Positions 1,907-64,000 of a stretch of DNA of 64,000 bases are shown here, one piece after another. Source of the DNA: Eledone cirrhosa (taxonomy: Eukaryota); the NCBI GenBank assembly GCA_964016885.1, contig OZ024741.1, forward strand, positions 333,436,001-333,500,000, given 5' to 3'. The notes below the pieces were generated by a model. It had not been told where the DNA came from. It ran no database searches and saw nothing but the letters and a program-made list of their open reading frames with translations. Within the stretch, counting starts at the first letter, position 1, and each line of letters starts with the position of its first letter. A program made the position numbers and the translations under genes.

Positions 1907-4165
1907 CTCCAATGCAACACATGAACTTATCCTTCAGGGTAACACATTAACACACCCTCCAGTGTAACACATGAATTTATCCTTCAGGGTAACACATTAA
2001 CACACTCTCCAGTGTAACACATGAACTTATCCTTCAGAGTAACACATTAACACACCCTCCAATGTAACACATGAATTTATCCTTCAGGGTAACACATTAA
2101 CACACCCTCCAATGCAACACATGAATTTATCCTTCAGGGTAACACATTAACACACCCTCCAGTGTAACACATGAACTTATCCTTCAGGGTAACACATTAA
2201 CACACCCTCCAGTGTAACACATGAATTTATCCTTCAGGGTAACACATTAACACACTCTCCAGTGTAACACATGAACTTATCTTTCAGGGTAACACATTAA
2301 CACACCCTCCAATGTAACACATGAACTTATCCTTCAGGGTAACACATTAACACACCCTCCAGTGTAACACATGAATTTATCCTTCAGGGTAACACATTAA
2401 CACACCCTCCAGTGTAACACATGAATTTATCCTTCAGGGTAACACATTAACACACCCTCCAATGTAACACATGAACTTATCCTTCAGGGTAACACATTAA
2501 CACACCCTCCAGTGTAACACATGAACTTATTCTTCAGGGTAACACATTAACACACCCTCCAGTGTAACACATGAATTTATCCTTCAGGGTAACACATTAA
2601 CACACTCTCCAGTGTAACACATGAACTTATCTTTCAGGGTAACACATTAACACACCCTCCAATGTAACACATGAACTTATCCTTCAGGGTAACACATTAA
2701 CACACCCTCCAGTGTAACACATCAATTTATCCTTCAGGGTAACACATTAACACACCCTCCAGTGTAACACATGAATTTATCCTTCAGGGTAACACATTAA
2801 CACACCCTCCAATGTAACACATGAACTTATCCTTCAGGGTAACATATTAACACACCCTCCAGTGTAACACATGAATTTATCCTTCAGGGTAACACATTAA
2901 CACACCCTCCAATGTAACACATGAATTTATCCTTCAGGGTAACACATTAACACACCCTCCAGTGTAACACATGAATTTATCCTTCAGGGTAACACATTAA
3001 CACACCCTCCAGTGTAACACATGAATTTATCCTTCAGGGTAACACATTAACACACCCTCCAGTGTAACACATGAACTTATCCTTCAGGGTAACACATTAA
3101 CACACCCTCCAGTGTAACACATGAATTTATCCTTCAGGGTAACACATTAACACACTCTCCAGTGTAACACATGAACTTATCTTTCAGGGTAACACATTAA
3201 CACACCCTCCAATGTAACACATGAACTTATCCTTCAGGGTAACACATTAACACACCCTCCAGTGTAACACATGAATTTATCCTTCAGGGTAACACATTAA
3301 CACACCCTCCAGTGTAACACATGAATTTATCCTTCAGGGTAACACATTAACACACCCTCCAATGTAACACATGAACTTATCCTTCAGGGTAACACATTAA
3401 CACACCCTCCAGTGTAACACATGAATTTATCCTTCAGGGTAACACATTAACACACCCTCCAATGTAACACATGAATTTATCCTTCAGGGTAACACATTAA
3501 CACACCCTCCAGTGTAACACATGAATTTATCCTTCAGGGTAACACATTAACACACCCTCCAGTGTAACACATGAACTTATCCTTCAGGGTAACACATTAA
3601 CACACCCTCCAGTGTAACACATGAATTTATCCTTCAGGGTAACACATTAACACACTCTCCAGTGTAATACATGAACTTATCTTTCAGGGTAACACATTAA
3701 CACACCCTCCAATGTAACACATGAACTTATCCTTCAGGGTAACACATTAACACACTCTCCAATGTAACACATGAACTTATCCTTCAGGGTAACACATTAA
3801 CACACCCTCCAGTGTAACACATGAATTTATCCTTCAGGGTAACACATTAACACACTCTCCAGTGTAATACATGAACTTATCTTTCAGGGTAACACATTAA
3901 CACACCCTCCAATGTAACACATGAACTTATCCTTCAGGGTAACACATTAACACACTCTCCAATGTAACACATGAACTTATCCTTCAGGGTAACACATTAA
4001 CACACCCTCCAATGTAACACATGAACTTATCCTTCAGGGTAACACATTAACACACCCTCCAATGTAACACATGAACTTATCCTTCAGGGTAACACATTAA
4101 CACACTCTCCAGTGTAACACATGAACTTATCCTTCAGAGTAACACATTAACCCATCCTCCAGTAT
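1907..4165. repeat. 50-bp tandem satellite, about 45 copies
   Basis: Unit atgaa(c/t)ttatccttcagggtaacacattaacacaccctcca(g/a)tgtaacac repeated head to tail with few variant sites. It decays into related sequence up to about 4250. Confidence 0.97.
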
Positions 4166-4819
4166 AACATATCTCCCTCTCCATCTTCCAGTATAACACA
4201 TTAACCCACCCACCAGTATAACACATCTCCCTCTCCATCCTCAAAGGTAATACTATACTAAAAGATGGAATGGTCTCAGCGGAAATATTTTTAACTCTAG
4301 GCCTGTTTGATTAAAGCGAACCTGGAGCTAAATAACAACAATAACAACAACAGTTTACTATAGCACCACAGGAAAACTAATAACCATAACCTTTGTGATA
4401 TCTGATATCACTTCCACTTGAGTTAATAAACAGTCACCATATTGATATCTAAATCTAATTAGTAGATGTCAAGTAATTAACTCCGTTTATTAATTATTTG
4501 TGAGATAATTATTAAAAGGTAACTGACTGTTTTATAGATTATCGGTCTACTTCGATTAAGCAAGTGATTTCCTTGAAACAGTCCATTAAACAATGCTAGC
4601 TAACTATGTATACATTAGCAGATGTATAAATTAATTTATATATACTATCATCAACATTATCAACAGCAGCACTATTTTAGCCCATTTTATACTTATTTTC
4701 CATTTGGGAAGGGGGTTGGACGAGTTGTCACATTTTGTGACTAGTCAGATCAGGTAACTATGTCCTGCTTATACATTCCATAAATTGTGGCATGGTTTCT
4801 ACAGCTGGTGTCCTCCCCA

Positions 4820-7052: not shown

Positions 7053-7830
7053 GTATGTGTGTGTGTGTGTGTATATATACATATATGGAAGTAGTTGACA
7101 GATGAGATGATCCTGTGAGACTCCAGAATGACAAAACTCACTTAGCAACAATAAATGAATATATGTATATATATAAGGCACTTCCTAAAATGGCTAACTA
7201 AAAACACCACATACTTTCTCTCTAAATCTTTTTTTCTCTTTAGTTTCTTCCTCTTCTCTCTATCTTCCTACTTTTGATTCTGATGAAGGACTAACAACCA
7301 AAACGTTGTGACTTCTTTCCTACTATACCAAGCATAAAACTCATATATATTCCCATTGACAGTATTGTTATCCTGTGTTGTGTATCTCTTTAATCTTTTA
7401 CAAACACGCACATATATATACATATATGTATATATATACATATATTGTATATCAGAGAGAGCAACATTAGATTTTTTAATAATTACATTTACTGGCTGAA
7501 AAATTGTTTCAGAAACCAAATCACTAATTTGTACATATAGGATATAACCATCGATCTTTCGATTGATGTTTGTATAATAAAAAGAAAAGTTCAATAAGAT
7601 TTCCTCATCGGAGCCAAAAAGAAAAGGTAAAGATATAAAAATCCAAAAGGAATTCATCTCACTGTAAAATAAGGCCTATAATAAACTTATATGTATTGAG
7701 CACACTACCCACTTCACTACTGGCATTTAATCTGCATAACTGATCCCTTTTCTCCTTCTTTGATTAGTTTGCTTGCATAATTTTTGATATGTATGTATAT
7801 ATATATGAATATATGTGTGTATATGTATAT

Positions 7831-9110
7831 ATGGTTCCTCTCCCAGATCCTCAAGCCTATGCTTGCTACTTTTCCTGGACATGTCAGCAGCTCTGAAGAA
7901 GTCATACAAAGACTACATCAACTACAACCTAACCAACTTAAACTCAACAGATATGCCTTTGGCCTTGATATTGTCTCCCTGTACATGACAGTACCCTCTC
8001 ATCCAGTGGTCAACCTAGTGACTGACTGCATCATTTTATACAACATATACTGCTTTGACCTCACTTCACAAGACATACATAAGCTTCTATCCGTCATCGT
8101 AGAAAATATATATTTCACTTTCCACCACCACACATACAAACAAACAACAGGCCTACCTACAGGGTCCAGTCTTTCAGACCTAGCCATCACCTATATGAAC
8201 AAAGTAAAACGTCGAGCGGTCAACACCTTGCTCCTGTGTTTTCTTCACTCGATACATAGATGATATACTTATCCTCCCATCATCCTGTGAAGAAGCCGGC
8301 ATAATATCTACAGCATTTTCACAGATAACAACATACGATTTACCACAGAACAGTCCGATAAAAACGGTTCCTTGTCTCTGCTGGACTTCCAGCTTAGAGC
8401 AACAGAAGAAGGTGCTGTATACACCAACTTCTATAGGAAAGCTGCCAGTAGAGATCTGTTTGTGCATTATATATCAGCTCTTCCCCTTGGTGCTAAAACC
8501 GGATATATAAGAAATGAACTTGCATGTACCCGGAATAAATGTAGCAAGACAGAGGACAAGATCACTCACACTGCACACTTCATTGATGTACTGAAGACGA
8601 ACGGACACCCAATATCCATAGTGAATTGACTTATGAATCGAAGGTGCCACAGGCATAAGACCTCCTCTAACACCTGCTTCATGAAATTACCACATTTCAG
8701 CGAAAGCATAACTACAGCTATCCGCAGAGCTATCCACAAAGAAGGACTCACTCTGGCCCTTCACTGCTTGGATACCTGTCTAAAAAGCAATCCAGAGACA
8801 ACAACAATCAATGCTCACTGACTAAGTGCCCTATCCACGATACAGCTCTGTGCCAGTGGACACATGTGGTGTACCAGATTGAATGCAACAAATGTAAGGA
8901 TTTCTACATTGGTAGTACGACTCAAGCACTCCACACTCGCATTAAAGAACACCTCAACATACATACATTCTCATTCAAAAAACACATTGACAAATGTAGA
9001 AATATCAACCAACATATTACCATTACTATTAAAGCGAGTGATAGAAATGTGGGCAATTAAGGAAGCCTTGCTCATACGTAGACTCAACCAGCAAATAAAT
9101 ATAGATTAGA
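7831..9110 (+). mobile_element. Penelope-like retroelement, degraded RT plus GIY-YIG endonuclease
   Basis: Frameshifted fragments contain LDIVSLY, YKQTTGLPTGSSLS, RYIDDIL (about 8250), LLDFQL and NFYRK. The C-terminal VYQIECNKCKDFYIGSTTQALHTRIKEH is a GIY-YIG motif. Confidence 0.9.
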
Positions 9111-10450: not shown

Positions 10451-10619
10451 AATGCCCAGACATATATATATATATATATTTGTTATTGTTGTTGTTCATC
10501 TTCTTTCTCAGCTGAGCCGTGGTAAATTAGCTCTATGATCAAACACATTCCAACATTGAATAACCAGTTTATTTATTTTAAAATGTTTTTATCATTGGCA
10601 ATGTATATCCTAAAAGTCT

Positions 10620-10884
10620 AAAGTCTGTCTCGAGCCCAGAGGCTCATCAGGCCGGTGCTTATCCTAGTTTCCATGGTGTTGAGTGAAAGTACATGGCTTC
10701 CCGCTGGACAGGATGCCAGTTTATCATAGGATTAAACCCCAGCTACTGTTGCTACTCATTTTCAGCTGACTATACTGGAGCAATGTGAAAAAATTGCTGA
10801 AGAACACAACACACAACCCAGTCCAGGAATTTAACCCATGGCATTATGATTTTAAGTCCATCACACTTACCGCTAGGCAACACA
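10620..10884 (-). mobile_element. tRNA-headed SINE (family A)
   Basis: Aligns along its length to 30376-30637. Partial copies at 18225-18378, 24336-24450, 26565-26670 and 39545-39640. A/B-box-like head on the minus strand. Confidence 0.7.
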
Positions 10885-12201
10885 CCATCAATAGGCTCAT
10901 TATTATCCAGGCTCATTATTATCCAATGTGTCTTTTTCTTTTTAAGATAGTATGGTCTGATACTCTGATATGAGAGGGGTGGGTGGTGATTTGGTTGTTT
11001 TTTCTAACAAAAATCGTATAAAGGCTCCACTTAGGGTCAATAAATTAAGCACCAACAATATACTGAGTTTAATTAACTTAATTGCACCAGAACCTTACAC
11101 ATTTAAAAGTCTTGGCCAATATAAGAAAGAAATAATTCTGAAACAAAATTGTATAATTTGCATCAAATTATTTTTATACTTAAATTTAATTTAGCATATT
11201 AAAATAAAAAAAAAAATTATCCATTAATTTTATGCATTGAAATGTCTCCAACTATAACAACAAAGAGCCTAGGGCTAGTGACTAACGTCCCTGCTGGGTA
11301 ATCTTCTACTGCATGCTATTCAAATGTAATACTAGGTTTTTATATCGTTAGTTATTCAAACCAATGAAATTCCAGTGAATGACATTAATTATGTATAAAA
11401 TATACAGATGGACGTTTGTTAATTATTTAATCAATTTTTTGAGGATTCATTAGGGAATATTTGAATCAGAATTTAAAGAAGGTGAAAAAATAAAGTCTAA
11501 TTATTTTATGCAAATGGAAAAATTCACTTGAAATCACATTTTGAGCATATAAAACTAAGCCGAAGCTCATGATGATAAAACAGGAGCAAGCAGAGCAGAA
11601 GTTTGTTATTAATTTATTCAAGACACATCTTGACAATAACGAGCTTTCTTTAACGAGTTTACGTGCATGCAAACATCGATGCATCCAACCCTTCATCGAC
11701 CCATCTCTTCCATATATACATCAACATCATCATAAACATCTTTTCATCACCATCATCATCATCATCTTCATCACCGTCATCAACATCATTATTGTCAACA
11801 TCATTATTGTCATCATCTCTGTTTAACATCTATTTCCTATATTTGCATGCATTAGACAGGTTATCACACTGTGGCTATGCCAGTCAGCTGACCATGTCTT
11901 GCTGCTATGCTCCGTTTTTGACTTGGATTTTTTTATGGCTGGATCGCCTTCCTAACAGCAACCACTTCACAGCATGTAATGAGAGCACTTTATCATGACA
12001 CCAGCACTACCACATGAAAAGGCGGAATGGGTGATTTTGCTATAGTACAAGCACTATAACTTACACTGTAGACTGTATATATGAACACACATGCATATAC
12101 ATACATATATAGTTTAGTATGGACCCATAATTCCTGAGTGAGTCGTAGGAGCACCATATTGGTATACAGCATTTATATATATATATATAAATATATATGT
12201 A

Positions 12202-12236
<35 letters not shown>

Positions 12237-12247
12237 ATATATATATG

Positions 12248-12290
<43 letters not shown>

Positions 12291-13174
12291 GTCAGAACGG
12301 GATGGAAAAAGTTCAGAGAGCTTATACCACTATTGGCTGCTAAAGAGTTCTCTCTAAAAATGAAAGACAGGCTGTATGATGCCTGCATACGAACAGCAAT
12401 GTTACATGGCAGTGAGACCTGGGCATTGTGTGCAGAGGATATACACAGACTGGAGAGAAACGAAGCTTGCATGCTCCGTTGGATGTGTAATAGTAATATA
12501 CGTGAACGGCAAAGCATAAACGAACTAAGAGAGAAATTAGAAATAAGAGGGATCAGATGATGTTTACTCGAGAGAAGACTACGTTGGTATGGTCACGTGA
12601 TGCGCATGAAGGACGATAGCTGTATAAAAAAGTGCAGGGCAATAAAAATAGACGGTAGCCACAGAGTAGGCAGACCCAGAAAAACCTGGGACGACTTGAT
12701 AAATTCCGACCTCACACACTTACACCTCTCCAAGACAATGTCACTGGACCGAGATCTTTGGCGCTACACAGTAATAGAGAAGACCCGCCTTACCTAAGTG
12801 CAAAGTGAAACCTACTACAGTCAGTAGGCACCTCTAACAAAATACACCCCCATCCCACTACCCCCACCCATCCACACCACCCTTTTCAATGTAAAGTTAT
12901 GTTGGTACTACAACATCCAGCCCGAAACAAATGAGTTTGTGTAGGTGTCACGACAAAAAAACACACAGTCCACGCTATAATGTGGCCGTGTAGGTAACAT
13001 GGTAAAAACCTCCCAGTTCCATACTGTAAATGTGGTTGGTGTTAGGAAGGGCATCCAGCTGTAGAAAACCTGCCAGACAACCACTCTTGCCTCAAGTGGG
13101 AAAACTCCCGTCCAAACCCATGCGAGCGTGGAATATGGACGTTAAACAAAGATGATGATGATGATGATGATGAT
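12291..13174 (+). mobile_element. RTE-clade LINE, 5'-truncated copy
   Basis: VRTGWKKFRELIPLL...LYDACIRTAMLHGSETWA...RLRWYGHVMRM...GRPRKTWDD. The 3' UTR ends in ggacgttaaac...(GAT)n. Both ends abut (TA)n. Confidence 0.92.
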
Positions 13175-14199
13175 ATATATATATGGATGATGGCATTTTG
13201 TATTTTCTTTAATGGTGTCCACTCTGTGCTGCAAGCATACCAATATATATATCACTAAGACAGCATTTAAGTGTATCATCATCATCAGTGTTGTTTTAAT
13301 GTCCACTTTCCCTGCTACCATGAAATCATACTCTATATGTTTATATACAATAAACTTATAGTAGCCTTGCTATCAAAGAAAAATATTTTTCATAATGAAA
13401 AAATTGTTTTTCTCTATTTTTCTCTAAGAACATCACTGATTTTGCCATTTTGTGAGAAAGCTAAATAGTGCTGTTTCACAATTCATTGATCTCTCATCAG
13501 TGATATTCTCTCAACTGATACTGAGATGAACATAGACGAGAATCTATATAGATTTTGCTGGGGATGCTCATTTGTATAAAGGTAATAGAAAAGATTGGTT
13601 AGAAATTGTCATTTGCATAGTGTGAACTTGGCTGGTTATAATTAATTGGCAGTATCACTAACACTGCATTTAAGCATAAAAATGGTGTATATGAAATCAT
13701 ACACTATAGAGTAGCCTCACTATCAAAGGAAAATAGTTTTCCATAATATATATCAATATAGATATAATATATAAATACATATAAACTCTTTTTTCCCTCT
13801 CTTTCTATATATATATATATCACTGAATATATTTATTGTCCTGGCTGCAGCCAGTACAGTCTTAATTCCTTAAGCTAGATTCTTTAATATGTCTCATAGA
13901 GGAAATCTTTCCAGTGTAGCATCATAAAATAAGAATAAAACAGATGTTTGTAGAAATATATCTATATGCAATAATAATTCACAAAATATATCAGGAACTG
14001 AATAAAGTTAATAAACTAAGACTATGTTGGCTTTGAACAGGTCATATACCCTTGAACTATATTTTATTGCAAAAACGTCCTTGTGGAAACTACACAGAAA
14101 TTGTACAGCACTATTTATTCCAAGGTATTAACTACCAGCCTGAGAGAGAGAAGGGACATCTTAAAGCTGGTATTTAAAAAAAGGTGCCTGTAGGAAAGA

Positions 14200-14231
<32 letters not shown>

Positions 14232-14603
14232 GTTTTGCGAGGTTTTAGATATGAAATCGTGTGTCGAAACAAATATTGTTATACTTGGGGAGGGTCATAT
14301 TTGTGTAATAATATTGCGAGAATTAATAATAGAACACACTCACAATACAACAGGAGGAAACATAATCGCACCACTGACAATGTTGCAGATGTACAACGAA
14401 AGAACTTTGTTAGACTATATATATGTGTTTGTGTCTATATTATATCTGTATTTTTGACCGTTGGTCAGTCAATGGTAACATTGAGGACCGAGTAAATTAA
14501 ATTAACTAATATAAAAGATACAGAAGCGAAAACCAATCTAACAGTGAGTGTGTTCTATTATTAATTCTGGCAATATTATTACACAAATATGACCCTATCC
14601 AAG

Positions 14604-14719
<116 letters not shown>

Positions 14720-15359
14720 AATACATATATATATATAAGCAAAGAGATATTTAATTTGTTGGTTATTCAACAAATTTATTTATAACATATTCGAAGCACT
14801 CTACAGAATTTCTTCTGGAGTATAATATCAATGATATTAATACATGGAAACTATCTTTATCAAACCATATTTATTTTATTATATATATTTCAAGGGTACC
14901 AACATTTTCGTATGCTCTCATCAGATAAAATACAAGAAATTGTTTTATAAATATTGACATATCCCAAAACAAGAACTTATCATTTTAAGTTCTATCCAAA
15001 ATGAACTTAAAATGATAGTTCTTGTTTTTGGATATGTCCATATTTATAAAACAATTTTTGTATTTTATCTAATGAGAGCGTACCAAAATTTGGTACCCTT
15101 GAAATATATATAATGAAATAAATATAGTTTTATAAATATAGTTTCCATGTATTAATATCATTGATATATATATATATATATATAAATACAATATAGGAGA
15201 AAGCTTTTTAGCGATACTCCGGCCAAATTCCAACTCACTCAACAAACATTAGGAAATAAGTGATTATATTCCCAATTATGCGTTCGGGGTGCTAACTAAA
15301 AGTATTGTGTGGAAAATTGGCTGTATTATTTCATATGAGACATATCTAATATATCTCTT

Positions 15360-15486
15360 CCCAGACGGACGTCTCGTTTCATTATAGGATTCCTACAATT
15401 TGGGTGAAATTATACCAATTTATGTAGGAGCTTGTATACCATCAATAGATATATATTCAAGTGGGCTCCTATAATTCATCAGTGGG
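15360..15486 (-). ncRNA. Type I hammerhead ribozyme, extended stem II
   Basis: Minus strand: CCCA-CUGAUGA-AUUAUAGGA...UCCUAUAAU-GAAA-CG(AGACGUC)CG-UC|UGGG. All three stems pair. GUC cleavage triplet. Confidence 0.85.
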
Positions 15487-15503
15487 TGCCCCAATATATA
15501 TAT

Positions 15504-15577
<74 letters not shown>

Positions 15578-15676
15578 AAAAAAAGATGAAATCGAAAATG
15601 CAACTGGAGTGTTATTTTTTTAAAAAATATATATATTTATTTGGTTCCTGAGAAAAACCACAGACCCTCAACTCTA

Positions 15677-15712
15677 CTTTTGAAAAGCAGAAGAACTGCG
15701 AAACCAGTAAAG
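15677..15712 (+). ncRNA. Minimal type I hammerhead, U3:A8 core variant
   Basis: CUU-UUGAAAA-GCAG(AAGAA)CUGC-GAAA-C(CA)G-UA|AAG. Confidence 0.65.
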
Positions 15713-15987
15713 GAACCAAATAAATATATATATTTTTAAAAAAAATAAGACTCCAGTTGCATTTTCGATTTCATCTTTTTTTCATTATACTTTCACTCGT
15801 GTAGGACACCTCGGTTATTTTTCATTTTGTGAAAAAAACCTCACTTTCTAATATATATATATATGTGAAGATAGACATAGAATATTCGAAAATATTCTGT
15901 ATGTTTATAATAAACATTTTGAAGACCTAATCGCTATAGAATAGAATACGTCACGTATTACAATTAGATTCTCGATAAAAGGGAAGT

Positions 15988-16026
15988 AACCTACGCGTTT
16001 CATTCTTATGAGAAATCTTCAGGATT
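15988..16026 (-). ncRNA. Minimal type I hammerhead
   Basis: AAUC-CUGAAGA-UUUCU(CAUA)AGAAU-GAAA-CGCG-UA|GGUU. Palindromic stem III (ACGCGU); U.U mismatch at the base of stem II. Confidence 0.72.
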
Positions 16027-16154
16027 ACATATCCAGTGCTTTTATCGAGAATGACACAGCTAGAGACTTATAGAATACTTAGCTGTGTACAGGAACTGGT
16101 TTGAAAGAGCGGTTGCCGGTCCGGCAGAAATTAGAAATTGGATTAAATGCTCTG

Positions 16155-17070
<916 letters not shown>

Positions 17071-17292
17071 TATCATCATCATTGATTAACGCCTATCTTC
17101 CACGCTAGCATAGGTTAGATGAGTTTGTTCCCATTTAGAGGCAAGTTGGGTTGGGTGACCATGTCTCGCTCATATGGGAGAGTTTCAGGCTGGTTTTCTA
17201 TGGCTGGATGCCCTTCCTAATGTCAACCACATTGAGCATGTGTGCTGGGTACTTTTTGTCCTGACACCTAAACGATTTGTGACACCTACACG

Positions 17293-17370
<78 letters not shown>

Positions 17371-17411
17371 CGAAACATAAGTCAATTGCATGAACTCATA
17401 ATCCTTTATTT

Positions 17412-17467
17412 ACTGCTATATATATTTCGATGATAGCCATTGAATGGCTATGACCTCATCAGGCAGT
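17412..17467 (-). ncRNA. Type I hammerhead
   Basis: ACUGC-CUGAUGA-GGUCAUAGCCAU(UCA)AUGGCUAUCAUC-GAAA-UAUAUA-UA|GCAGU. Confidence 0.85.
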
Positions 17468-17962
17468 TAGTCAGTTCTTAGATATGCCAGCTCTGTGTTT
17501 ATAGTGTTGATCGTATCCGAGCCTTGGGACATATATGTTTAAATTTGGTGGTTTACCACTGAGTAGAATTGATAATTCTGCAATGTTAACCATGATGTAA
17601 TGTGAGAAAAGCACTCGGCATTATGCAACTCATCTGTCTTTGATGTTGAATTATGTTGGTGGTGCAGGAATGGAGTAAATCTATTATAAAGTAAAATGAC
17701 AGGAGGCCAAATAGGTTGAATTTCTTTTATTATTTATTTCTGCAAATACTGCATATTTCAGTGGCCAGGTTGCGTAAAAACTTGGTGACAATTGCATGAT
17801 AGATGTATACCAATGGAATGATGGTAAACTTTATGGAAACATGCTGCTTCCTTTGTCTCTAGGTCAAAAGCATAAACACATCTTTTTCTTCTCTGTTTTT
17901 TCTTTGCTTGTTTCCTTAAAGTTTACCATCATTCCATTGGTATACATCTATTATGCAATAGT

Positions 17963-18018
17963 CACTTGAAGATGTCACCGGGTTCTTACGCAACCTGGCC
18001 AATGAAATGACCATAGTG
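17963..18018 (+). ncRNA. Type I hammerhead, U3.G8 variant (family shared with 20440 and 21143)
   Basis: CAC-UUGAAGA-ugucaCCGGGUU(cuuacgc)AACCUGGccaau-GAAA-UG(AC)CA-UA|GUG. Confidence 0.6.
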
Positions 18019-18475
18019 TTTGCAGAAATAAATCATCATCATCATCATCATTTCATTTTACGTCCGCTTTTCCCTGCTTGCAAGGGTGGGACGGGAACTG
18101 ATTCTGGCTTGATTTCTACAGCTGGATGCCCTTCCTAACACCAACCTCATTTACAGTGAGTGCTGGGTGCTTTTTTGCCGTGGCACCTACACGACCACTT
18201 TGCAGTGGAATGATAAGGACCTCAGTCCCTATCATCTCATTTCTACAGCTGAGTAAACTGGAGCAATTTGAAATAAAGTGTCTTGCTCAAGGAAACAACA
18301 CACCACCCGGTCTGAGAATTGAACTCACAACCTTTCGATTGCAAGGCCAATGCTCTAACCACTAAGCCATGTGCCTCCATAAATAATAGAGGAAATTCCT
18401 CTAAATAATAGAGGAAATTCAACATTTTTCGGCCTCCTGTAATTTACCTTTATGATATATATATTTATATATATG

Positions 18476-19536
18476 TCATCATCATCATCATCCTCGTTTA
18501 ACGTCCACTTTCCACGCTAGCATGGGTTAGACGGGAGTTGTCCCACTTGAGGCAAGGTTGGTCGGGTGACCGTGTCTCGCTCATATAGGACTATCTGGCA
18601 GGTTTTCTATGGCTGGATGCCCTTCCTAACACCAACCACATTTACAGTGTGGAACTGGCAACTTTTTACCGTGTTACCTACATGACCACATTACAGCGTG
18701 GACTGTGTGTTTTTTTCTCGTGACACCTACACGATCTTGATCTCAATCTCATTTATCTCATTTATTTGGACTGGATGTTGTGGTACCAACTTTACAGAGA
18801 GAGGATGGTGTTGGTGCGTGTGGGAGGATAGGGTAGGGGTAGTGGATTGGGGTGTATATTTGGTTAAGAGGTGCCTACTGACTGTAGGTTTTGCTTTGTA
18901 CATAGGAAAGGTGAGTCTTCTGTATTACTGTGTAGCGCCAAATATCTCGGTCCAGTGACATTGTCTTGGAGAAGTGTAAGTGCGTGAGGTCGGAATTTAT
19001 CAAATCGTCCCAGGTTTTTCTGGGTCTACCTACTCCGTAACTTCCATCTATTTTGATCGCCCTGCACTTTTATGCAGCAGTCGTCTTTCATGCGCATCAC
19101 GTGGCCATACTAACGTAGTCTTCTCTCGAGTAAACATCATCTGATCCCTCTTATTCCTAATTTCTCACTTAGTTCATTTATGCTTTGCCGTTCACGTATA
19201 TTACTATTACACATCCAACTGAGCATGCATTCTTCGTTCCTTTCCAGTCTGCGCAGGTCCTCTGCACACAATACCCATGTCTCACTGCCATGTAGCATTG
19301 CTGTTCGTATACAGGCATCATACAATCTGCCTTTCATTTTTAAGAGAAACCTTTTGTGGCAACAGCGGTATAAACTCTCTGAACTTTTTCCATCCCGTTC
19401 TGACTCTAGCTACTGTACTTTCAAAGCATCCTCCACCACTGTTGATTTCGTCACCCAGCTAACGGAAAGTGTCTACTATTTCTATAGAATCATCTGGGCA
19501 ATAGAAGGGGCTAGTATCCTGTGGACACTTGCTACC

Positions 19537-39150: not shown

Positions 39151-40681
39151 TGAGTTATCCTCATTTGTGATGTGGTCACACCAAGAAATTCTAAATATCA
39201 TCCTAAGACAATACTTAGTAATATTTAATTTAACCCTTTCATGACAATAATTCTATTTACTGCTAATAGAGGATGCTAGTGCTCATGACCCTTTTCAGGA
39301 CAGCTTAGACATATGAGATATAGGGTAGCCTCAAATAAAAAACTAAAAAATAAAATAAATCTACAGCTCACACATATGCAAGTTTAGTTGGCTTTCTATG
39401 TGGCTGAATCTCAAAGGAGGTATCTTTAATATAGGGACCCTAGCCCACACCTATGTAGGTATATCTGGCCTCATATGAGGTTGCACCTCATAAGAGATTA
39501 CTCAAGATTTTAATGATAAGGATTCCAGTTTCCAGTTGTATCATGAAAAGCAATGTGAAATGAAGTGTCTTGCTCAAGAACAGAATGTGCTGCATGGTCA
39601 ATGAATTAAAATAATAACCTTATGATCATGACTCAAATACCCTAAATACTTCAATCATCGAAACTGATCTTTGTTCCAGATGTTTACAGCAGAGAGAACT
39701 CCACTAATAATACCTAACGGACAGGTGGTGGTTATAAACCAGGTGATATTAAATATATCATCTATTTCTCACTGAAATACACACCCCTATGGGTTTTTTA
39801 TTTATTTTTGAAAAATAATCTACAATTTGATGGTCATGGCTGGAATGGCAATAATCATGTATTTGCTAAACCAAGGTCGACTTCTGGCTAAATTACAAAA
39901 ACAACAACTGTTGCTGTTTTCTCATAGATCATATTTACTAAATATTATGCACTCAATATCATTTTTTATGCCATTGCCAATGATGAGGATGTTGATGTTG
40001 GTCATGTGATGGTGGTAGTATTGGTAATGTTGGCTGTTTCTTGTTGTTTTGCTGTTTATCCATGCAACAATATATTAGTTCTTATATCTTTTTCTCATGT
40101 GACAAGAGAAAACGAATATAGTGCTTTGGTGCCTCATTTCTTTTATTTCGTAACTGAGTATATGGATATATATATATATACACACATGTATGTGTGTTTG
40201 CTTACATATGTATGAGTGCATGTATATGTATATATAATGTATACATACATCTAATCCTTTTCTCTCTATATATCTATATGTATATATGTATATATATATG
40301 CACATAGACACATATACCCAAGTATGTATTAATTATTCTTTGCCAAACTATATAAATATGCCAAGCCACTATTTTGGAATAAGAATCAATAGAGTATAAC
40401 TTAAAGACATTTTATGATAAACAAATACAAATACGATTTCTTTTTCCTTCTGTTCAAAACATTAAAAGCTGCTCTCATACATCAATTTTACTTAGAATAA
40501 TGAATACCATTTTCCTGCGGACACGAATTCTATTATCTTTAATCTGGCTTTAAAACTTCAGAATAACTCGAAATTATTTCCTTTGAAGTATTTTCATGTA
40601 CTGAATAAAAACTATGTTTTGTTATTTTTTATATATATTTTTTTTTATTTTCAGGATATTCCTTTATAACAGAGAGGAAAT

Positions 40682-43078
40682 ATGCAGCTAAATCTCAGCA
40701 TTTGTTTGTTATATTTACACTATTGTTTGTGTATAGACTTTACATATTATGTGAAAGAAGGAGAACAAGAAGGGACTTACCTTGGAGATATCGCAGTAGA
40801 TATGCATTTATATGACAGTAATTTACTCACTGACCAAAGTAAAGTCACGTTCAGTCAATTTCAACGCAGTGCCACCCAAAATTCTCAGTTATTCAATGTC
40901 ACAAAATCAGGGAAAATATATACTGCACAAACACTGGATAGTGACATACTTTGCTCATATAACCAGGAATGTTTCAAAACTATAAAAATTGCCATTCAAC
41001 AAGCAAAGACATTTATAAAAATATTGAAAGTTCGAGTGGTTATTCAAGATATCAATGACCATCAACCAAAATTTAAAGATGATGAAATTAGCATTCAGTT
41101 TTCTGAAGATGCCAGCATTGGAGTGAAAAGATCAATTCCAAATGCTATCGACAGAGATGTTGGTATCCAAAATTCTCAAATAAGCTACCACCTTGGAAAT
41201 AATATGGACAGTCCATTTGCGTTATCAACATCAAAAAGTGTTGATGGAATATCAGAGCTTTCCATATTCTTAAAAGAAAAATTAGACAGAGAAAAGCAAG
41301 ATGAATATGTTCTTGAGATCATAGCTAAAGATGGTGGGTCACCAGCCAAAGAAAGTGTTTTAATTGTCAAAGTTACAGTTACTGATGTCAATGATAATAC
41401 TCCTATTTTTTCACGAAAGGTTTACAACATCACCACCAAAAACAAGGCAAGTAGAATGATGCCAATCATTACATTAAGAGCAACTGATTTAGATTCAGGT
41501 GATAATGGTAAAGTTTCCTACCATTTCAGTTCAAAGACTGCTGAATCAGCTAAAAGCCATTTCATGTTAAATGAAAGGACAGGTGATATCTACCTGCAGC
41601 AAATTTTCCCTCTTAGGAGTAAATTTGTCAATGAATTGTATGTACGTGCAACTGACAGCGGGAAACCACCTTTGAGCTCAGCTGCTTTGGTTTTTGTAAA
41701 TATTATCAACCAACAAAACAATTATCCAAGTATAGATGTCAATTTTGTATCTCCCCTCAGCGAGAGCTCAGCAGCTATCTCAGAAGACACCAATGTTGGT
41801 AGCTTTATTGCATATGTCATGGTGACTGATAATGATATCGGACTTAATGGTGAGGTGACTTGTGAACTTCACCATGCTAAATTCCAGCTGTTAATGTTGG
41901 GATCAAAGGAATACAAAGTAAATCTCAAAGATTCTGTTGATAGAGAAATCCAAGACCATTATGATATTACCATTTCCTGCCAGGACCAAGGATCTCCTTC
42001 ATTAGAAACTAAAAGAAAGTTTTCTATCCAAGTAATGGACGTCAATGATGTACAACCAAAATTCACTAAATCAACATTCAAATTTTTGACCTATGAAAAT
42101 AAAAAAGCAAATTTTCCAATTGGTTTTATTAATGCTACTGACCCTGACTTAGGACCAGGAGGTCAACTGACCTATTCTCTTTTGACCAATAATAAATACA
42201 ATTTTCCCTTCCAGATCACAAACTATGGATTTATTTCTACAAGGAAATCATTGGATCATGAAAATAAAAACATTTACAAATTCCAGGTTTTTGTCAAAGA
42301 CAATGGCAAACCATCTTTTAATAACACAGCAAATGTTTTCATTGAAGTAATGGATGAGAATGATAATGCTCCATACTTCTCTTTCCCTAGTGTTAACCCC
42401 TTCAGTCTTGATGTACACTATTATCCCAATAAAAAAACTAACATCACAGTTCTGAAAGCCTTTGACAGAGACAGTCGGACAAATGCTTTTCTCAAATATG
42501 AAATACTCAGAGGCAATGACAAACATTTGTTTAGCGTGAATCCTTACACTGGAGTTTTAGCTTTTTCTCGTCCAGTTTACCAAGATGATGTTGGATCTTA
42601 TAATTTACAATTTGTTGTCAAAGACAGTGGATCACCAGTCTTATCTGCAATGACAACGGTGTCTTTGACACTGACTGTCAGTAACAAAACTTCTAGAATT
42701 ATGCCTGCCATAAACAAAAATTTAAGTGAAATGGTCGAAGTAGATTTTGCAATAATAATAGTGCTAGTTGCAATGATTGTATCTATAGCTGTAGTAGTAT
42801 CTATAGCAACATGCATAATACGATGCAACAGAGCGAGAAATGCAGCACAAGGAGGAGGAGGGGTGGAGGTTATGAATCCCTCACTCAATTCACGCAGTGA
42901 ACGAAGACAGTTGATCAACCAAACGGATAGTTCTGTTGTCATTCCCAAAAGTCCCAGTGAAATGAGGAACAGGAATATTCAGTTGGTAGGATTAAGGAGT
43001 CAACTTTATTCTGATGATGTTACTCAGAGTGACTGGAAAACATCGACATTAGCCACAAAGCTCCCAAGTAATAAGCAG
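40682..43078 (+). CDS. Protocadherin, large ectodomain/TM exon (signal peptide, 6 cadherin repeats, TM, start of cytoplasmic tail)
   Basis: 813-aa ORF with cadherin motifs (DINDHQP, DVNDNTP, DVNDVQP, DENDNAP, LDRE, AxDxG, DxDxGxNG), C-x5-C in EC1 (CSYNQEC) and a hydrophobic TM (FAIIIVLVAMIVSIAVVVSIATCII). Acceptor ttttttattttcag| ends at 40654, 27 nt before the ATG. Donor CAG|gtaacc at 43078/43079 falls after codon 799 (phase 0), so the last 14 aa of the ORF track are probably intron read-through. Confidence 0.95.
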
Positions 43079-43478
43079 GTAACCTCTAATAATGCAAACT
43101 TATATCCTTATGATCTTGAGTAAGTCTTTCAAAAGCAGAGGGGGGAGGGGGAAGGGATAAAAGCTTAGCAACTGGTTGTTATTTTTTTAAAAATAAAACA
43201 AAACAAACTTTATTATGGGTAAAAATAACAATAGAATATGTACACATAACTCAATGGGTATTCATTTCTCTCTCTCTCTTTCTCTCTCTCTATATATATA
43301 TACACATATAAATACATATAGAAAATATATATTCATATGCATATACATGAATGTGTATATATATATATTTTTATATATATATACACATACATGTATATAT
43401 GTCAAAACATTAAAACAATCTTTATTAAGGGTAAAAATAACTGCAGAGTATATATGTCAATGCGTGTGTGCGTGTATA

Positions 43479-62670: not shown

Positions 62671-62833
62671 TTGGGTAAGGTCGGCTTTTATAATTATTAT
62701 TTTTCATATTAATGTTAATTAATGATAAAGAATAAATTATATATACATATATATATATATACATTATGAAGAGAGAAGAAACATTTAGATATAATTAGTA
62801 ATAAAATGTATCATACCTAAACTGCTCCTAAAT

Positions 62834-62923
62834 TCCTCGACTACGCAGTTTCGTGGCATAAACAAAAACAATATATCATAAAGATATAGAGTCCTTGCGA
62901 GGTCTGCCGACTTATCAAGAGGA
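62834..62923 (-). ncRNA. Type I hammerhead, U3:A8 variant, branched stem II
   Basis: Reverse complement of 63645-63734. Confidence 0.8.
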
Positions 62924-63644
62924 TACCTCATTTTACCAGTCTCAAGAACGCGTCTACACGACGTGAGAAAGAATCCCAAAAGGCGGAGGGGGAGATAGTC
63001 ACGCGATATAACGGTCGAGAAACAGAGCTAAGCCTCTTATAACCCCGAAGAAAATACCACGGAGGCGGAGGGGGTATTTATATCGAGGCCGTAGAAGAGG
63101 TGGTGAAGAAGGCGAGAAGTATGAGTAATGGAAGCTTTCCAGCTGTCCCCACACTTCAAAGATTGCTCGACCAGAGGGAGTTATTAACAATATATTTAGA
63201 AACACACAGATACATGCGGACACACACATATATACATGAATGCATCCGCACCCAACTGTGAGTTAAGGGTGCCAACTTCACCGATGTTGCTCAATGAATG
63301 ACTGGGACAGACCAATTCAGTTGAACTAGACTGAACCAGTATCAGAGTTAAAAATACATTATGAAGAGAGAAGAAACATTTAGATATAATTAGTAATAAA
63401 ATGTATCATACCTAAACGGGGACAGCTGGAAAGCTTCCATTACTCATACTTCTCGCCTTCTTCACCACCTCTTCTACGGCCTCGATATAAATACCCCCTC
63501 CGCCTCCGAGGTATTTTCTTCGGGGTTATAAGAGGCTTAGCTCTGTTTCTCGACCGTTATATCGCGTGACTATCTCCCCCTCCGCCTTTTGAGATTCTTT
63601 CTCACGTCGTGTAGACGTGTTCTTGAGACTGGTAAAATGAGGTA

Positions 63645-63734
63645 TCCTCTTGATAAGTCGGCAGACCTCGCAAGGACTCTATATCTTTATGATATATTGT
63701 TTTTGTTTATGCCACGAAACTGCGTAGTCGAGGA
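63645..63734 (+). ncRNA. Type I hammerhead, U3:A8 variant, branched stem II
   Basis: UCCUC-UUGAUAA-GUcGGCA...[internal hairpins]...UGCCAC-GAAA-CUG(CG)UAG-UC|GAGGA. GUC triplet. Confidence 0.8.
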
Positions 63735-63967
63735 ATTTAGGAGCAGTTTAGGTATGATACATTTTATTACTAATTATATCTAAATGTTTCTTCTCTCTTC
63801 ATAATGTATTTTTAACTCTGATACTGGTTTAGTCTAGTTCAACTGAATTGGTCTGTCCCAGTCATTCATTGAGCAACATCGGTGAAGTTGGCACCCTTAA
63901 CTCACAGTTGGGTGCGGATGCATTCATGTATATATGTGTGTGTCCGCATGTATCTGTGTGTTTCTAA

Positions 63968-64000
<33 letters not shown>

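What the first reader, a model, noticed from the sequence alone, without database searches (positions are those of the whole stretch)
62761..63974. Young 1.2-kb ribozyme element: 595-nt permuted unit plus an inverted copy
Seen: layout A B C D A | B' A' D'. The 62-bp block A recurs after 595 nt. The sequence then switches abruptly at 63417/63418 to an inverted copy that runs B'-A'-D' across the unit junction. About 4 substitutions separate the arms, each arm has one HHR, a TATAAATA (63486-63493) lies about 160 nt upstream of the + HHR, and (TA)n flanks both ends. I see no recognisable protein. Inference: the template was a tandem or circular RNA of about 595 nt, copied past its junction with a strand switch, as in Penelope tandem/inverted pLTR insertions or retrozyme circles.
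Basis: partly seen in the sequence, partly recalled or inferred. Interest (0 to 1): 0.85.

Follow-up and report, generated by a model that had tools for sequence, protein, structure and literature searches.

The report
Two-armed ribozyme retroelement, primed twice
This is one of thousands of copies of a protein-free, 595-base jumping element with a predicted self-cutting ribozyme in a mollusc genome; its two-armed copies almost always end at one each of two fixed points, so each was likely pasted in by a borrowed Penelope-type enzyme copying one likely circular RNA from both cut DNA strands, which would explain a long-puzzling shape of Penelope insertions.

Summary
The element is one copy of a young non-coding family with at least 2,558 insertions in (TA)n. 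Its 595-nt unit carries a type I hammerhead with a U3-A8 core. It is best filed as a non-LTR retrozyme likely moved by Penelope-like (PLE) machinery.

The inversion is not a strand switch. Arm 3' ends fall at two fixed sites, A and B, 78 and about 245 nt past the predicted cut. Of 49 two-armed copies, 47 have one A and one B end; none is B/B. An older subfamily (15 of 15 readable) and an ORF-bearing Neptune-type PLE here (11 of 11) obey the same rule. The arms of one insertion share rare alleles, and 21 of 46, this copy included, cannot be fold-backs.

Likely mechanism: both cut target strands prime on one circular RNA, one at each site. Inherited variants show an A>G excess, possibly ADAR editing.

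Not shown: RNA, circle, cleavage, partner enzyme, read support for this junction. The TATA box is not conserved. The scan noted related Penelope palindromes in a shark genome.

The parts
62737..62760 (.). Left (TA)n target; abuts the A end
   Evidence: Sequence; 133 of 142 A/B ends in the family are followed by (TA)n
62761..63417 (-). Left arm, 657 nt (1.1 units), RNA sense on the minus strand; RNA 3' end at site A (62761 = unit position U595), 5' end truncated at U534
62834..62923 (-). Type I hammerhead of the left arm (core UUGAUAA, U3-A8; predicted cut 62839/62838)
   Evidence: Mirror of the + copy; motif scan and alignment; cleavage untested
63417..63418 (.). Head-to-head junction of the two truncated 5' ends, no microhomology in this copy
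   Evidence: gap 0; 36 of 46 A/B junctions in the family share 1-11 bases
63418..63974 (+). Right arm, 557 nt (0.94 unit), starts at U206, crosses site A at 63807, RNA 3' end at site B (63974 = U167)
63486..63493 (+). TATAAATA; present but polymorphic (TATGAATA in about a third of young and half of old loci), so weak as a promoter candidate
   Evidence: 63489 A>G in 63% of contig depth in run X1
63645..63734 (+). Type I hammerhead of the right arm: stem I 63645-63649/63730-63734, core UUGAUAA 63650-63656, long stem II, GAAA, short stem III with a palindromic loop, predicted cut 63729/63730
   Evidence: U3-A8 core described in PLE hammerheads in PMC4209133
63631..63631 (+). A>G allele (U419) seen in both arms of this copy (left arm 62937) and in none of the 91 other loci compared
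63722..63722 (+). A>G allele (U510, loop III) seen in both arms (left arm 62846) and in none of the 91 other loci compared; turns the family's perfect stem-III palindrome into one with G-U pairs
63749..63807 (+). Best-conserved block, ending at site A; likely protein-binding or initiation element
   Evidence: 24 of 24 columns identical between young and old subfamilies at U561-595, against 17 of 27 at U386-420; 92-95% identity in short arms of old copies
63975..64000 (.). Right (TA)n target; abuts the B end and continues past the window

Best explanation
The element is a two-armed copy of a non-coding, 595-nt hammerhead-bearing repeat family (non-LTR retrozyme type) that was likely inserted by a Penelope-like RT-endonuclease acting in trans, likely by priming both cut strands of a (TA)n target on one likely circular RNA, one strand at site A and the other at site B. 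Shown: thousands of copies in (TA)n; two fixed 3' ends; a near-strict one-A-one-B rule; arms that overlap in template coordinates and share rare alleles; arrays of up to about 5 homogeneous units per arm. Inferred steps: (1) a multi-unit copy is transcribed; (2) paired hammerheads cut out unit-length RNA, which is ligated to a circle; (3) an asymmetric, probably dimeric PLE protein binds the RNA, nicks both strands of (TA)n, and starts cDNA at A from one end and at B from the other; (4) both RTs run round the circle with strand displacement and stop at variable points; (5) the two cDNA ends anneal by 0-11 nt of complementarity and are filled in, giving a head-to-head insertion with the 167-174 nt 'tail' at one end only. 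One-armed copies would be events where one side was not extended or was lost.
For: Copy number: 5,134 matches of a 25-mer; 2,558 A-ends directly followed by (TA)n. End rule: of 93 loci (38 best hits plus 55 covering the first 100 marker matches on contig C1), 49 are simple two-armed copies: 47 A/B (one is a local duplicate), 1 A/A, 1 B/other, 0 B/B; 40 are one-armed and 4 complex. No opposed A/A pair within 10 kb among the first 100 A-ends listed, which removes the bias of the B-side marker. Old subfamily, about 82% identical: 15 of 15 two-armed copies with both ends readable are A/B; 7 more had one unreadable end and 8 were one-armed (read by eye). ORF-bearing Neptune-type family N1: 11 of 11 two-armed copies A/B among 30 loci (one pair inferred from coordinates), with site A 82 nt after its hammerhead cut against 78 here. 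One template: arms of one locus differ at 7 of 651 common polymorphic columns, arms of different loci at 8,272 of 31,844. 53 rare alleles are fixed in all covering units of 26 loci (both arms in 12 loci), only 8 are mixed; five rare alleles are in all 7-8 units of L097. Not fold-back: in 21 of 46 A/B loci neither arm lies within the other, and only 7 of 46 fit a short-loop fold-back. 215 passes through the cut region show no deletion (insertions not counted). The unit folded as a circle gives -183 kcal/mol against -141 +/- 6 for 30 shuffles. Literature: purified Anolis PLE protein cuts and extends both strands, starts internally at two sites that delimit the tail, prefers AT-rich DNA and is predicted to dimerise (PMC11167929).
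Against: No partner ORF shares sequence with the unit: none among the PLE-search loci tested, and cut-to-B segments of four Neptune-type families align no better than shuffles (31-183 of 200 shuffles as good). N1 arms look older (89-98% identical where found) than this family's (about 99.5%). PMC11167929 saw no difference in start site between strands and found hammerhead cleavage dispensable for insertion in vitro, with unprocessed RNA the dominant substrate. Shared alleles do not separate one RNA molecule from two RNAs of one parent. 'Private' is relative to 92 sampled loci out of thousands. Hammerhead covariation rests on one stem I pair (C-G 17, U-A 14, U-G 12, none broken); the whole-structure score is not beyond shuffles (46 of 500) and that alignment was picked by a core motif. 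Arm 5' ends are mildly enriched just after the cut (15 of 136 at U514-546, 7.5 expected, p 0.009, window chosen after looking), which hints that some templates are linear. One A/A exception (L011).
Confidence: 0.72

Rival explanations
1. Same twin priming, but on a linear uncleaved multimeric transcript, on two RNAs from one parent, or on linear monomers with end-to-end template jumping; no circle is the template.
For: Unprocessed RNA was the main substrate for the Anolis PLE in vitro (PMC11167929). Mild excess of 5' ends just after the cut. A young homogeneous parent array would also give identical units.
Against: Rare alleles fixed across all units, with few mixed cases (53 vs 8), need a single-unit bottleneck followed by re-expansion. 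B arms run past site A in 37 of 46 loci and A arms past site B in 32 of 46, unlike classical L1 twin priming (recalled). No deletions at 215 passes of the cut site, where jumps would be expected to scar.
Confidence: 0.17
2. One priming event followed by fold-back self-priming or strand switch (first reader; self-priming model of PMC3846280), with the second end set by endonuclease resolution.
For: Junction microhomology is common; arm 5' ends lie within 35 nt of each other in 10 of 46 loci (5.5 expected, p 0.04); 7 of 46 fit a short-loop fold-back. Shared alleles between arms are expected under this model too.
Against: In 21 of 46 loci, this copy among them, each arm holds sequence the other cannot supply in order, and most of the rest would need loops of 70-570 nt. 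A switch back onto the RNA at a second fixed site is the best model under another name.
Confidence: 0.07
3. Satellite-like DNA amplified by unequal crossover or DNA circles, with the hammerhead a passenger.
For: The unit occurs in tandem; the 2026 preprint proposes local tandem amplification for retrozymes.
Against: Copies are dispersed, with fixed 3' ends at (TA)n and random 5' truncation. Inherited variants are strand-biased while single-unit changes are not. The hammerhead region is conserved between subfamilies (30 of 30 columns at U421-455).
Confidence: 0.02
4. The inversion in this copy is an assembly artefact.
For: No listed contig bridges 63417/63418 (partial list).
Against: The arms differ by 4 substitutions yet share 2 alleles seen nowhere else in the sample; the ends obey a rule seen in three families; every locus has its own junction.
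Confidence: 0.02

Closest known systems
Metazoan non-LTR retrozymes (PMC7229834; bioRxiv 10.64898/2026.07.22.740005)
   Same: Non-coding tandem unit with a type I hammerhead, weak palindromic helix III, strongly folded as a circle, thousands of copies; 595 nt is inside the 51-972 bp range of the preprint.
   Different: Mostly dispersed arrays of 1-5 units per arm with fixed 3' ends, (TA)n targeting and two-armed inversions, which were not described for retrozymes in the passages read. U3-A8 core with a stem II of about 60 nt. Circular RNA not shown here.
Penelope-like element insertions with inverted pLTRs and a tail at one end (PMC3846280, PMC8557442); Neptune/Nematis type
   Same: Head-to-head inverted 5'-truncated copy, tail at one end only, (TA)n preference, hammerhead upstream of the 3' ends, U3-A8 core as in N1 and other Neptune-type families of this genome.
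   Different: No ORF; tail 167-174 nt rather than 30-40; unit repeats seamlessly; the one-A-one-B rule is counted here on many copies; no sequence link to a partner found.
Anolis Poseidon PAc in vitro (PMC11167929)
   Same: Two internal RT start sites downstream of the hammerhead that delimit the tail; both strands cut and extended; little homology between primer and template.
   Different: That work saw no strand preference for the two sites and did not, in the text read, report paired use in single events.
LINE-1 twin priming (recalled, Ostertag and Kazazian 2001; not read)
   Same: Both target ends prime on one RNA; arms joined head-to-head by microhomology.
   Different: L1 uses the poly(A) end plus a variable internal site and its arms barely overlap; here both sites are fixed and internal, and the arms overlap by up to several units.
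MRC1 and other non-autonomous Chlamys PLEs (passage in PMC8557442)
   Same: Non-autonomous PLE with multicopy head-to-tail insertions.
   Different: That clade lacks canonical hammerheads, and its non-autonomous forms generally resemble their partner at the 3' end; here no partner similarity was found.

Membership tests
Non-LTR retrozyme | Tandem repeat unit with a type I hammerhead in each unit | tested here: met
   Arrays of up to about 5 units per arm; core columns near-invariant in 88 loci. This copy has only one hammerhead per arm.
Non-LTR retrozyme | No protein coding, no LTR/PBS/PPT | tested here: met
   Six-frame translation shows no long frame; ends are A/B sites and truncations, not LTRs. 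PBS and PPT were not searched separately.
Non-LTR retrozyme | Low GC, highly self-paired circle | tested here: met
   About 42% GC from column counts; circular fold z -6.6 on 30 shuffles.
Non-LTR retrozyme | Self-cleavage of the RNA | not testable with these tools
   Only motif, conservation and one compensatory pair.
Non-LTR retrozyme | Accumulation of circular RNA | tested here: inconclusive
   No run on record as RNA; unit-length cyclic contigs in two runs of unknown kind would also arise from tandem DNA.
Type I hammerhead | Core boxes with a 3-8 pair, three stems, NUH cut site | tested here: met
   UUGAUAA / GAAA / GUC; U3-A8 in 42 of 43; stems 94.9-98.8% paired (alignment picked by core motif). 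No Rfam hit at gathering threshold.
Penelope-like element (autonomous) | RT plus GIY-YIG ORF | tested here: not met
   No ORF in the unit and no ORF-linked copy among the loci examined.
Non-autonomous PLE derivative | PLE insertion signature: inverted 5'-truncated copy, tail at one end, AT-rich target | tested here: met
Non-autonomous PLE derivative | Sequence shared with the pLTR of an autonomous partner | tested here: inconclusive
   None found with the families sampled; the searches scored only 150 of 10,597-18,557 candidates each.
Non-autonomous PLE derivative | Target-site duplication | tested here: inconclusive
   Unreadable in pure (TA)n; short duplications seem present at L051 and L009 by eye.

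The most novel reading that the evidence does not exclude
An asymmetric Penelope RT dimer loads on one 595-nt RNA circle at two hard-wired sites and rolls two cDNAs off it from both ends of a cut (TA)n. This is the general origin of the Penelope tail and inverted repeats. ADAR edits made on the circle are written into the germ-line genome as A>G changes (two in this very copy), so RNA editing drives the evolution of an RNA-circle transposon in a cephalopod-type genome.
Probability: 0.33. Interest if true: 0.82.

Novelty: new variant of a known kind. Interest (0 to 1): 0.58.

Why it matters
How Penelope-like elements make their tandem and inverted insertions and their one-sided tail is called undefined in PMC8557442. 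Mobilisation of retrozyme circles by PLE enzymes has been argued from co-occurrence and phylogeny only (bioRxiv 2026.07.22.740005). A very young family with thousands of copies gives event-by-event records. The one-A-one-B rule, shared with an ORF-bearing PLE in the same genome, turns both questions into a direct prediction: single reactions should use one site per strand on one RNA. The A>G bias, if editing, would record RNA edits in germ-line DNA. The ingredients (tail at one end, two start sites, retrozyme circles, U3-A8 core) are each in print, which caps the surprise.

Tried and rejected
Rfam scan of the window: no hit at gathering threshold. Search for RNA runs: no RNA holder listed. Contigs of four runs laid on 63151-63745: runs X4 and X5 each hold one cyclic 620/621-nt contig of the unit, but the run kind is unknown and tandem DNA gives the same cycle, so this was not used; no listed piece bridges the junction, which proves nothing. 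Partner hunt: window PLE relic as query, Pfam GIY-YIG, short-stem hammerhead pattern (28 matches, all family copies or junctions), old subfamily as query, family N6; none linked the unit to an ORF. L118 first looked like a chimera of this element with N1; I rejected that as an insertion beside an existing N1 palindrome. L219 and L236 looked A/A but are A/B on reading the sequence. TATAAATA as a conserved promoter rejected. 5' U enrichment at A>G sites not found (12 of 27 vs 35 of 98, p 0.5), and differences between subfamily yardsticks show no purine excess (A/G 22, C/T 24). A possible GT-AG intron around site A was noticed but not tested. Scan notes: nothing for this genome or sequence.

Full report
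Observation. The layout is as described. A 64-bp block recurs after 595 nt, and 63418-63974 is an inverted copy with 4 substitutions. I define U as the unit in hammerhead sense (reverse complement of 62761-63355), with the predicted cut after U517. The left arm is 657 nt on the minus strand (U534 to U595, then U1 to U595, ending at 62761). The right arm is 557 nt on the plus strand (U206 to U595, then U1 to U167, ending at 63974). Both RNA 3' ends face outward into (TA)n, and the truncated 5' ends meet at 63417/63418 without shared bases. The host is a 3.0-Gb genome with a protocadherin whose nearest clusters are mostly molluscan; 'octopus-like' is my recall-based inference.

Ribozyme. Rfam finds nothing, but the sequence forms a type I hammerhead with core UUGAUAA, GAAA and GUC. 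The usual C3-G8 pair is U3-A8, a variant reported in Schistosoma PLE hammerheads (PMC4209133, passages). Stem II is about 60 nt. Helix III is short with a palindromic loop (perfect in the family), the type that paper says works as a dimer. Between the young family and a subfamily about 82% identical, U421-455 is identical at 30 of 30 columns and U561-595 at 24 of 24, against 17 of 27 at U386-420. One stem I pair covaries (C-G 17, U-A 14, U-G 12, none broken), but the whole structure is not beyond shuffles (46 of 500) and those 43 rows were picked by a core motif. Cleavage is untested. The TATAAATA box is polymorphic.

Family. One 25-mer has 5,134 exact matches, and 2,558 places show the A end directly followed by (TA)n, a lower bound on insertions. 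I parsed 93 loci: 38 best hits and 55 covering the first 100 marker matches on contig C1. 3' ends fall at site A (U593/595, 78 nt after the cut) or site B (U163-174, about 245 nt after); 5' ends are scattered. 133 of 142 such ends are followed by (TA)n. There are 40 one-armed, 49 simple two-armed and 4 complex loci.

The end rule. Of the 49 two-armed loci, 47 have one A and one B end (46 after dropping a local duplicate, L050), one is A/A (L011), one is B/other (L084) and none is B/B. Independent choice of site would give at most half (p 3e-13 for 46 of 47). The C1 marker could miss short A/A copies, so I checked the first 100 A-ends listed genome-wide: no opposed pair lies within 10 kb. In 30 old-subfamily loci, 15 of 15 two-armed copies with both ends readable are A/B; 7 had an unreadable end and 8 were one-armed (by eye). 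The genome also holds ORF-bearing PLEs with a Cys motif before GIY-YIG (Neptune/Nematis type by the criteria in PMC3846280 and PMC8557442). Family N1 (L199, 938-aa frame, pLTR-ORF-pLTR) has a U3-A8 hammerhead and two ends, 82 and 150 nt after the cut. Its two-armed copies are A/B in 11 of 11 among 30 loci, and six more look so.

One template, two primings. Arms of one locus differ by 0.48%, units in one arm by 0.34%, different loci by 2.05%. At common polymorphic columns the arms of a locus differ at 7 of 651, against 8,272 of 31,844 for arms of different loci (92 loci, L050 dropped). 53 rare alleles are fixed in every covering unit of 26 loci, 12 of them across both arms, and only 8 are mixed. 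This copy has two such alleles (U419, U510) in both arms. A fold-back would also share alleles, but in 21 of 46 loci, this one included, neither arm lies inside the other, and only 7 fit a short loop. So both arms were likely primed separately on RNA of one origin. B arms pass site A in 37 of 46 loci and 52 of 92 arms exceed one unit, so strand displacement on a repeating template is implied. Fixation of new alleles over whole arrays needs a single-unit bottleneck, most simply a circle. The unit folds strongly as a circle (z -6.6), and 215 passes of the cut region carry no deletion. Against this: 5' ends are mildly enriched just after the cut, and two RNAs from one parent cannot be excluded.

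Strand-biased variation. Of 102 inherited variants (shared among loci or fixed within a locus, 111 young loci), 87 could be polarised with the old subfamily: A>G 27, T>C 17 (p 0.005 against composition), G>A 13, C>T 11 (p 0.41). G follows the changed A in 11 of 27 against 15 of 98 (p 0.007); U before it is not enriched. Single-unit changes show no such bias (A>G 14, T>C 33, p 0.23). This supports an RNA step in hammerhead sense and fits ADAR editing (neighbour preference and high cephalopod editing are recalled, not looked up). RT error bias is an alternative, several tests were run, and differences between subfamilies show no purine excess.

Partner. Not found. PLE loci from three protein or family searches share no sequence with U beyond inserted family copies and an AC-rich stretch; each search scored only 150 candidates of 10,000 or more. 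End regions of four Neptune-type families align no better than shuffles. N1 is a candidate by core variant, spacing of site A and target, but its copies look older.

Comparison with print. PMC7229834 (passages) defines non-LTR retrozymes and shows their circles in coral, mussel and axolotl. The 2026 preprint (abstract through discussion; supplements closed) argues from phylogeny that they are non-autonomous PLEs. PMC3846280 (parts 1-4 of 5) describes inverted pLTRs with a tail on one of them and proposes self-priming on an antisense template. PMC8557442 (passages) notes the tail is often at one end only, attributes it to endonuclease resolution and calls the cycle undefined. PMC11167929 (main text; supplementary figures not seen and may bear on pairing) shows two internal start sites and extension of both strands. 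Searches listed no paper that, from titles, term counts or the texts read, describes this family, a strict paired use of the two sites, or editing recorded in such copies. Older subscription papers on Penelope structure are outside the library and were not read. An unchecked scan note on a shark genome (e1-7858806) agrees that the inverted half is built anew at each insertion.

Verdict. A real, young retrozyme-type non-autonomous element. It works like a PLE insertion but is not an autonomous PLE. It is a new variant of a known kind, whose value lies in the countable one-A-one-B rule and the single-template evidence. Interest 0.58.

Noticed in passing
window 7781-9060 (+): Broken Penelope-like element: RT-like fragment and a GIY-YIG fragment (PF01541, E 2e-5); member of an old, decayed family.
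   Followed up: partly
window 40670-43123 (+): 817-aa open frame of a protocadherin; nearest Atlas clusters mostly Mollusca.
   Followed up: partly
window 1907-4226: 50-bp minisatellite, 46 copies, 95% matches.
   Followed up: no
L199 (G000:C1:145868500-145878400): Near-intact Neptune-type PLE (N1) with a U3-A8 hammerhead, 5,367 marker matches genome-wide, obeying the same one-A-one-B rule.
   Followed up: yes
L205, L211, L214 downstream of ORF: Another Neptune-type family whose hammerhead-like motif reads UUGAAAA with GCAA in place of GAAA; may be inactive or an unusual core.
   Followed up: no
L133:16-1141; L151:1091 and 1544: Other hammerhead repeat families: a 310-nt tandem unit with CUGAUGA core, and an inverted pair with UUGAUAA core.
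   Followed up: no
window 63750-63832 and L199 after the hammerhead: Site A lies in a pyrimidine tract that looks like the 3' end of a GT-AG intron (clear AG in the old subfamily and N1; in N1, N4 and N6 the cut triplet GUA overlaps a donor-like motif). If real, only unspliced RNA could be primed at A, which would bear on intron retention by PLEs. Read by eye.
   Followed up: no
L010, L017, L031 flanks: Flanks on the two sides look like inverted copies of each other, as if the (TA)n target end had snapped back and been extended.
   Followed up: no
L004, L018, L067, L071, L079, L118, L092: 7 of 93 element loci lie within 150 bp of an N1 pLTR piece, consistent with a shared (TA)n target (L092 by eye).
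   Followed up: partly
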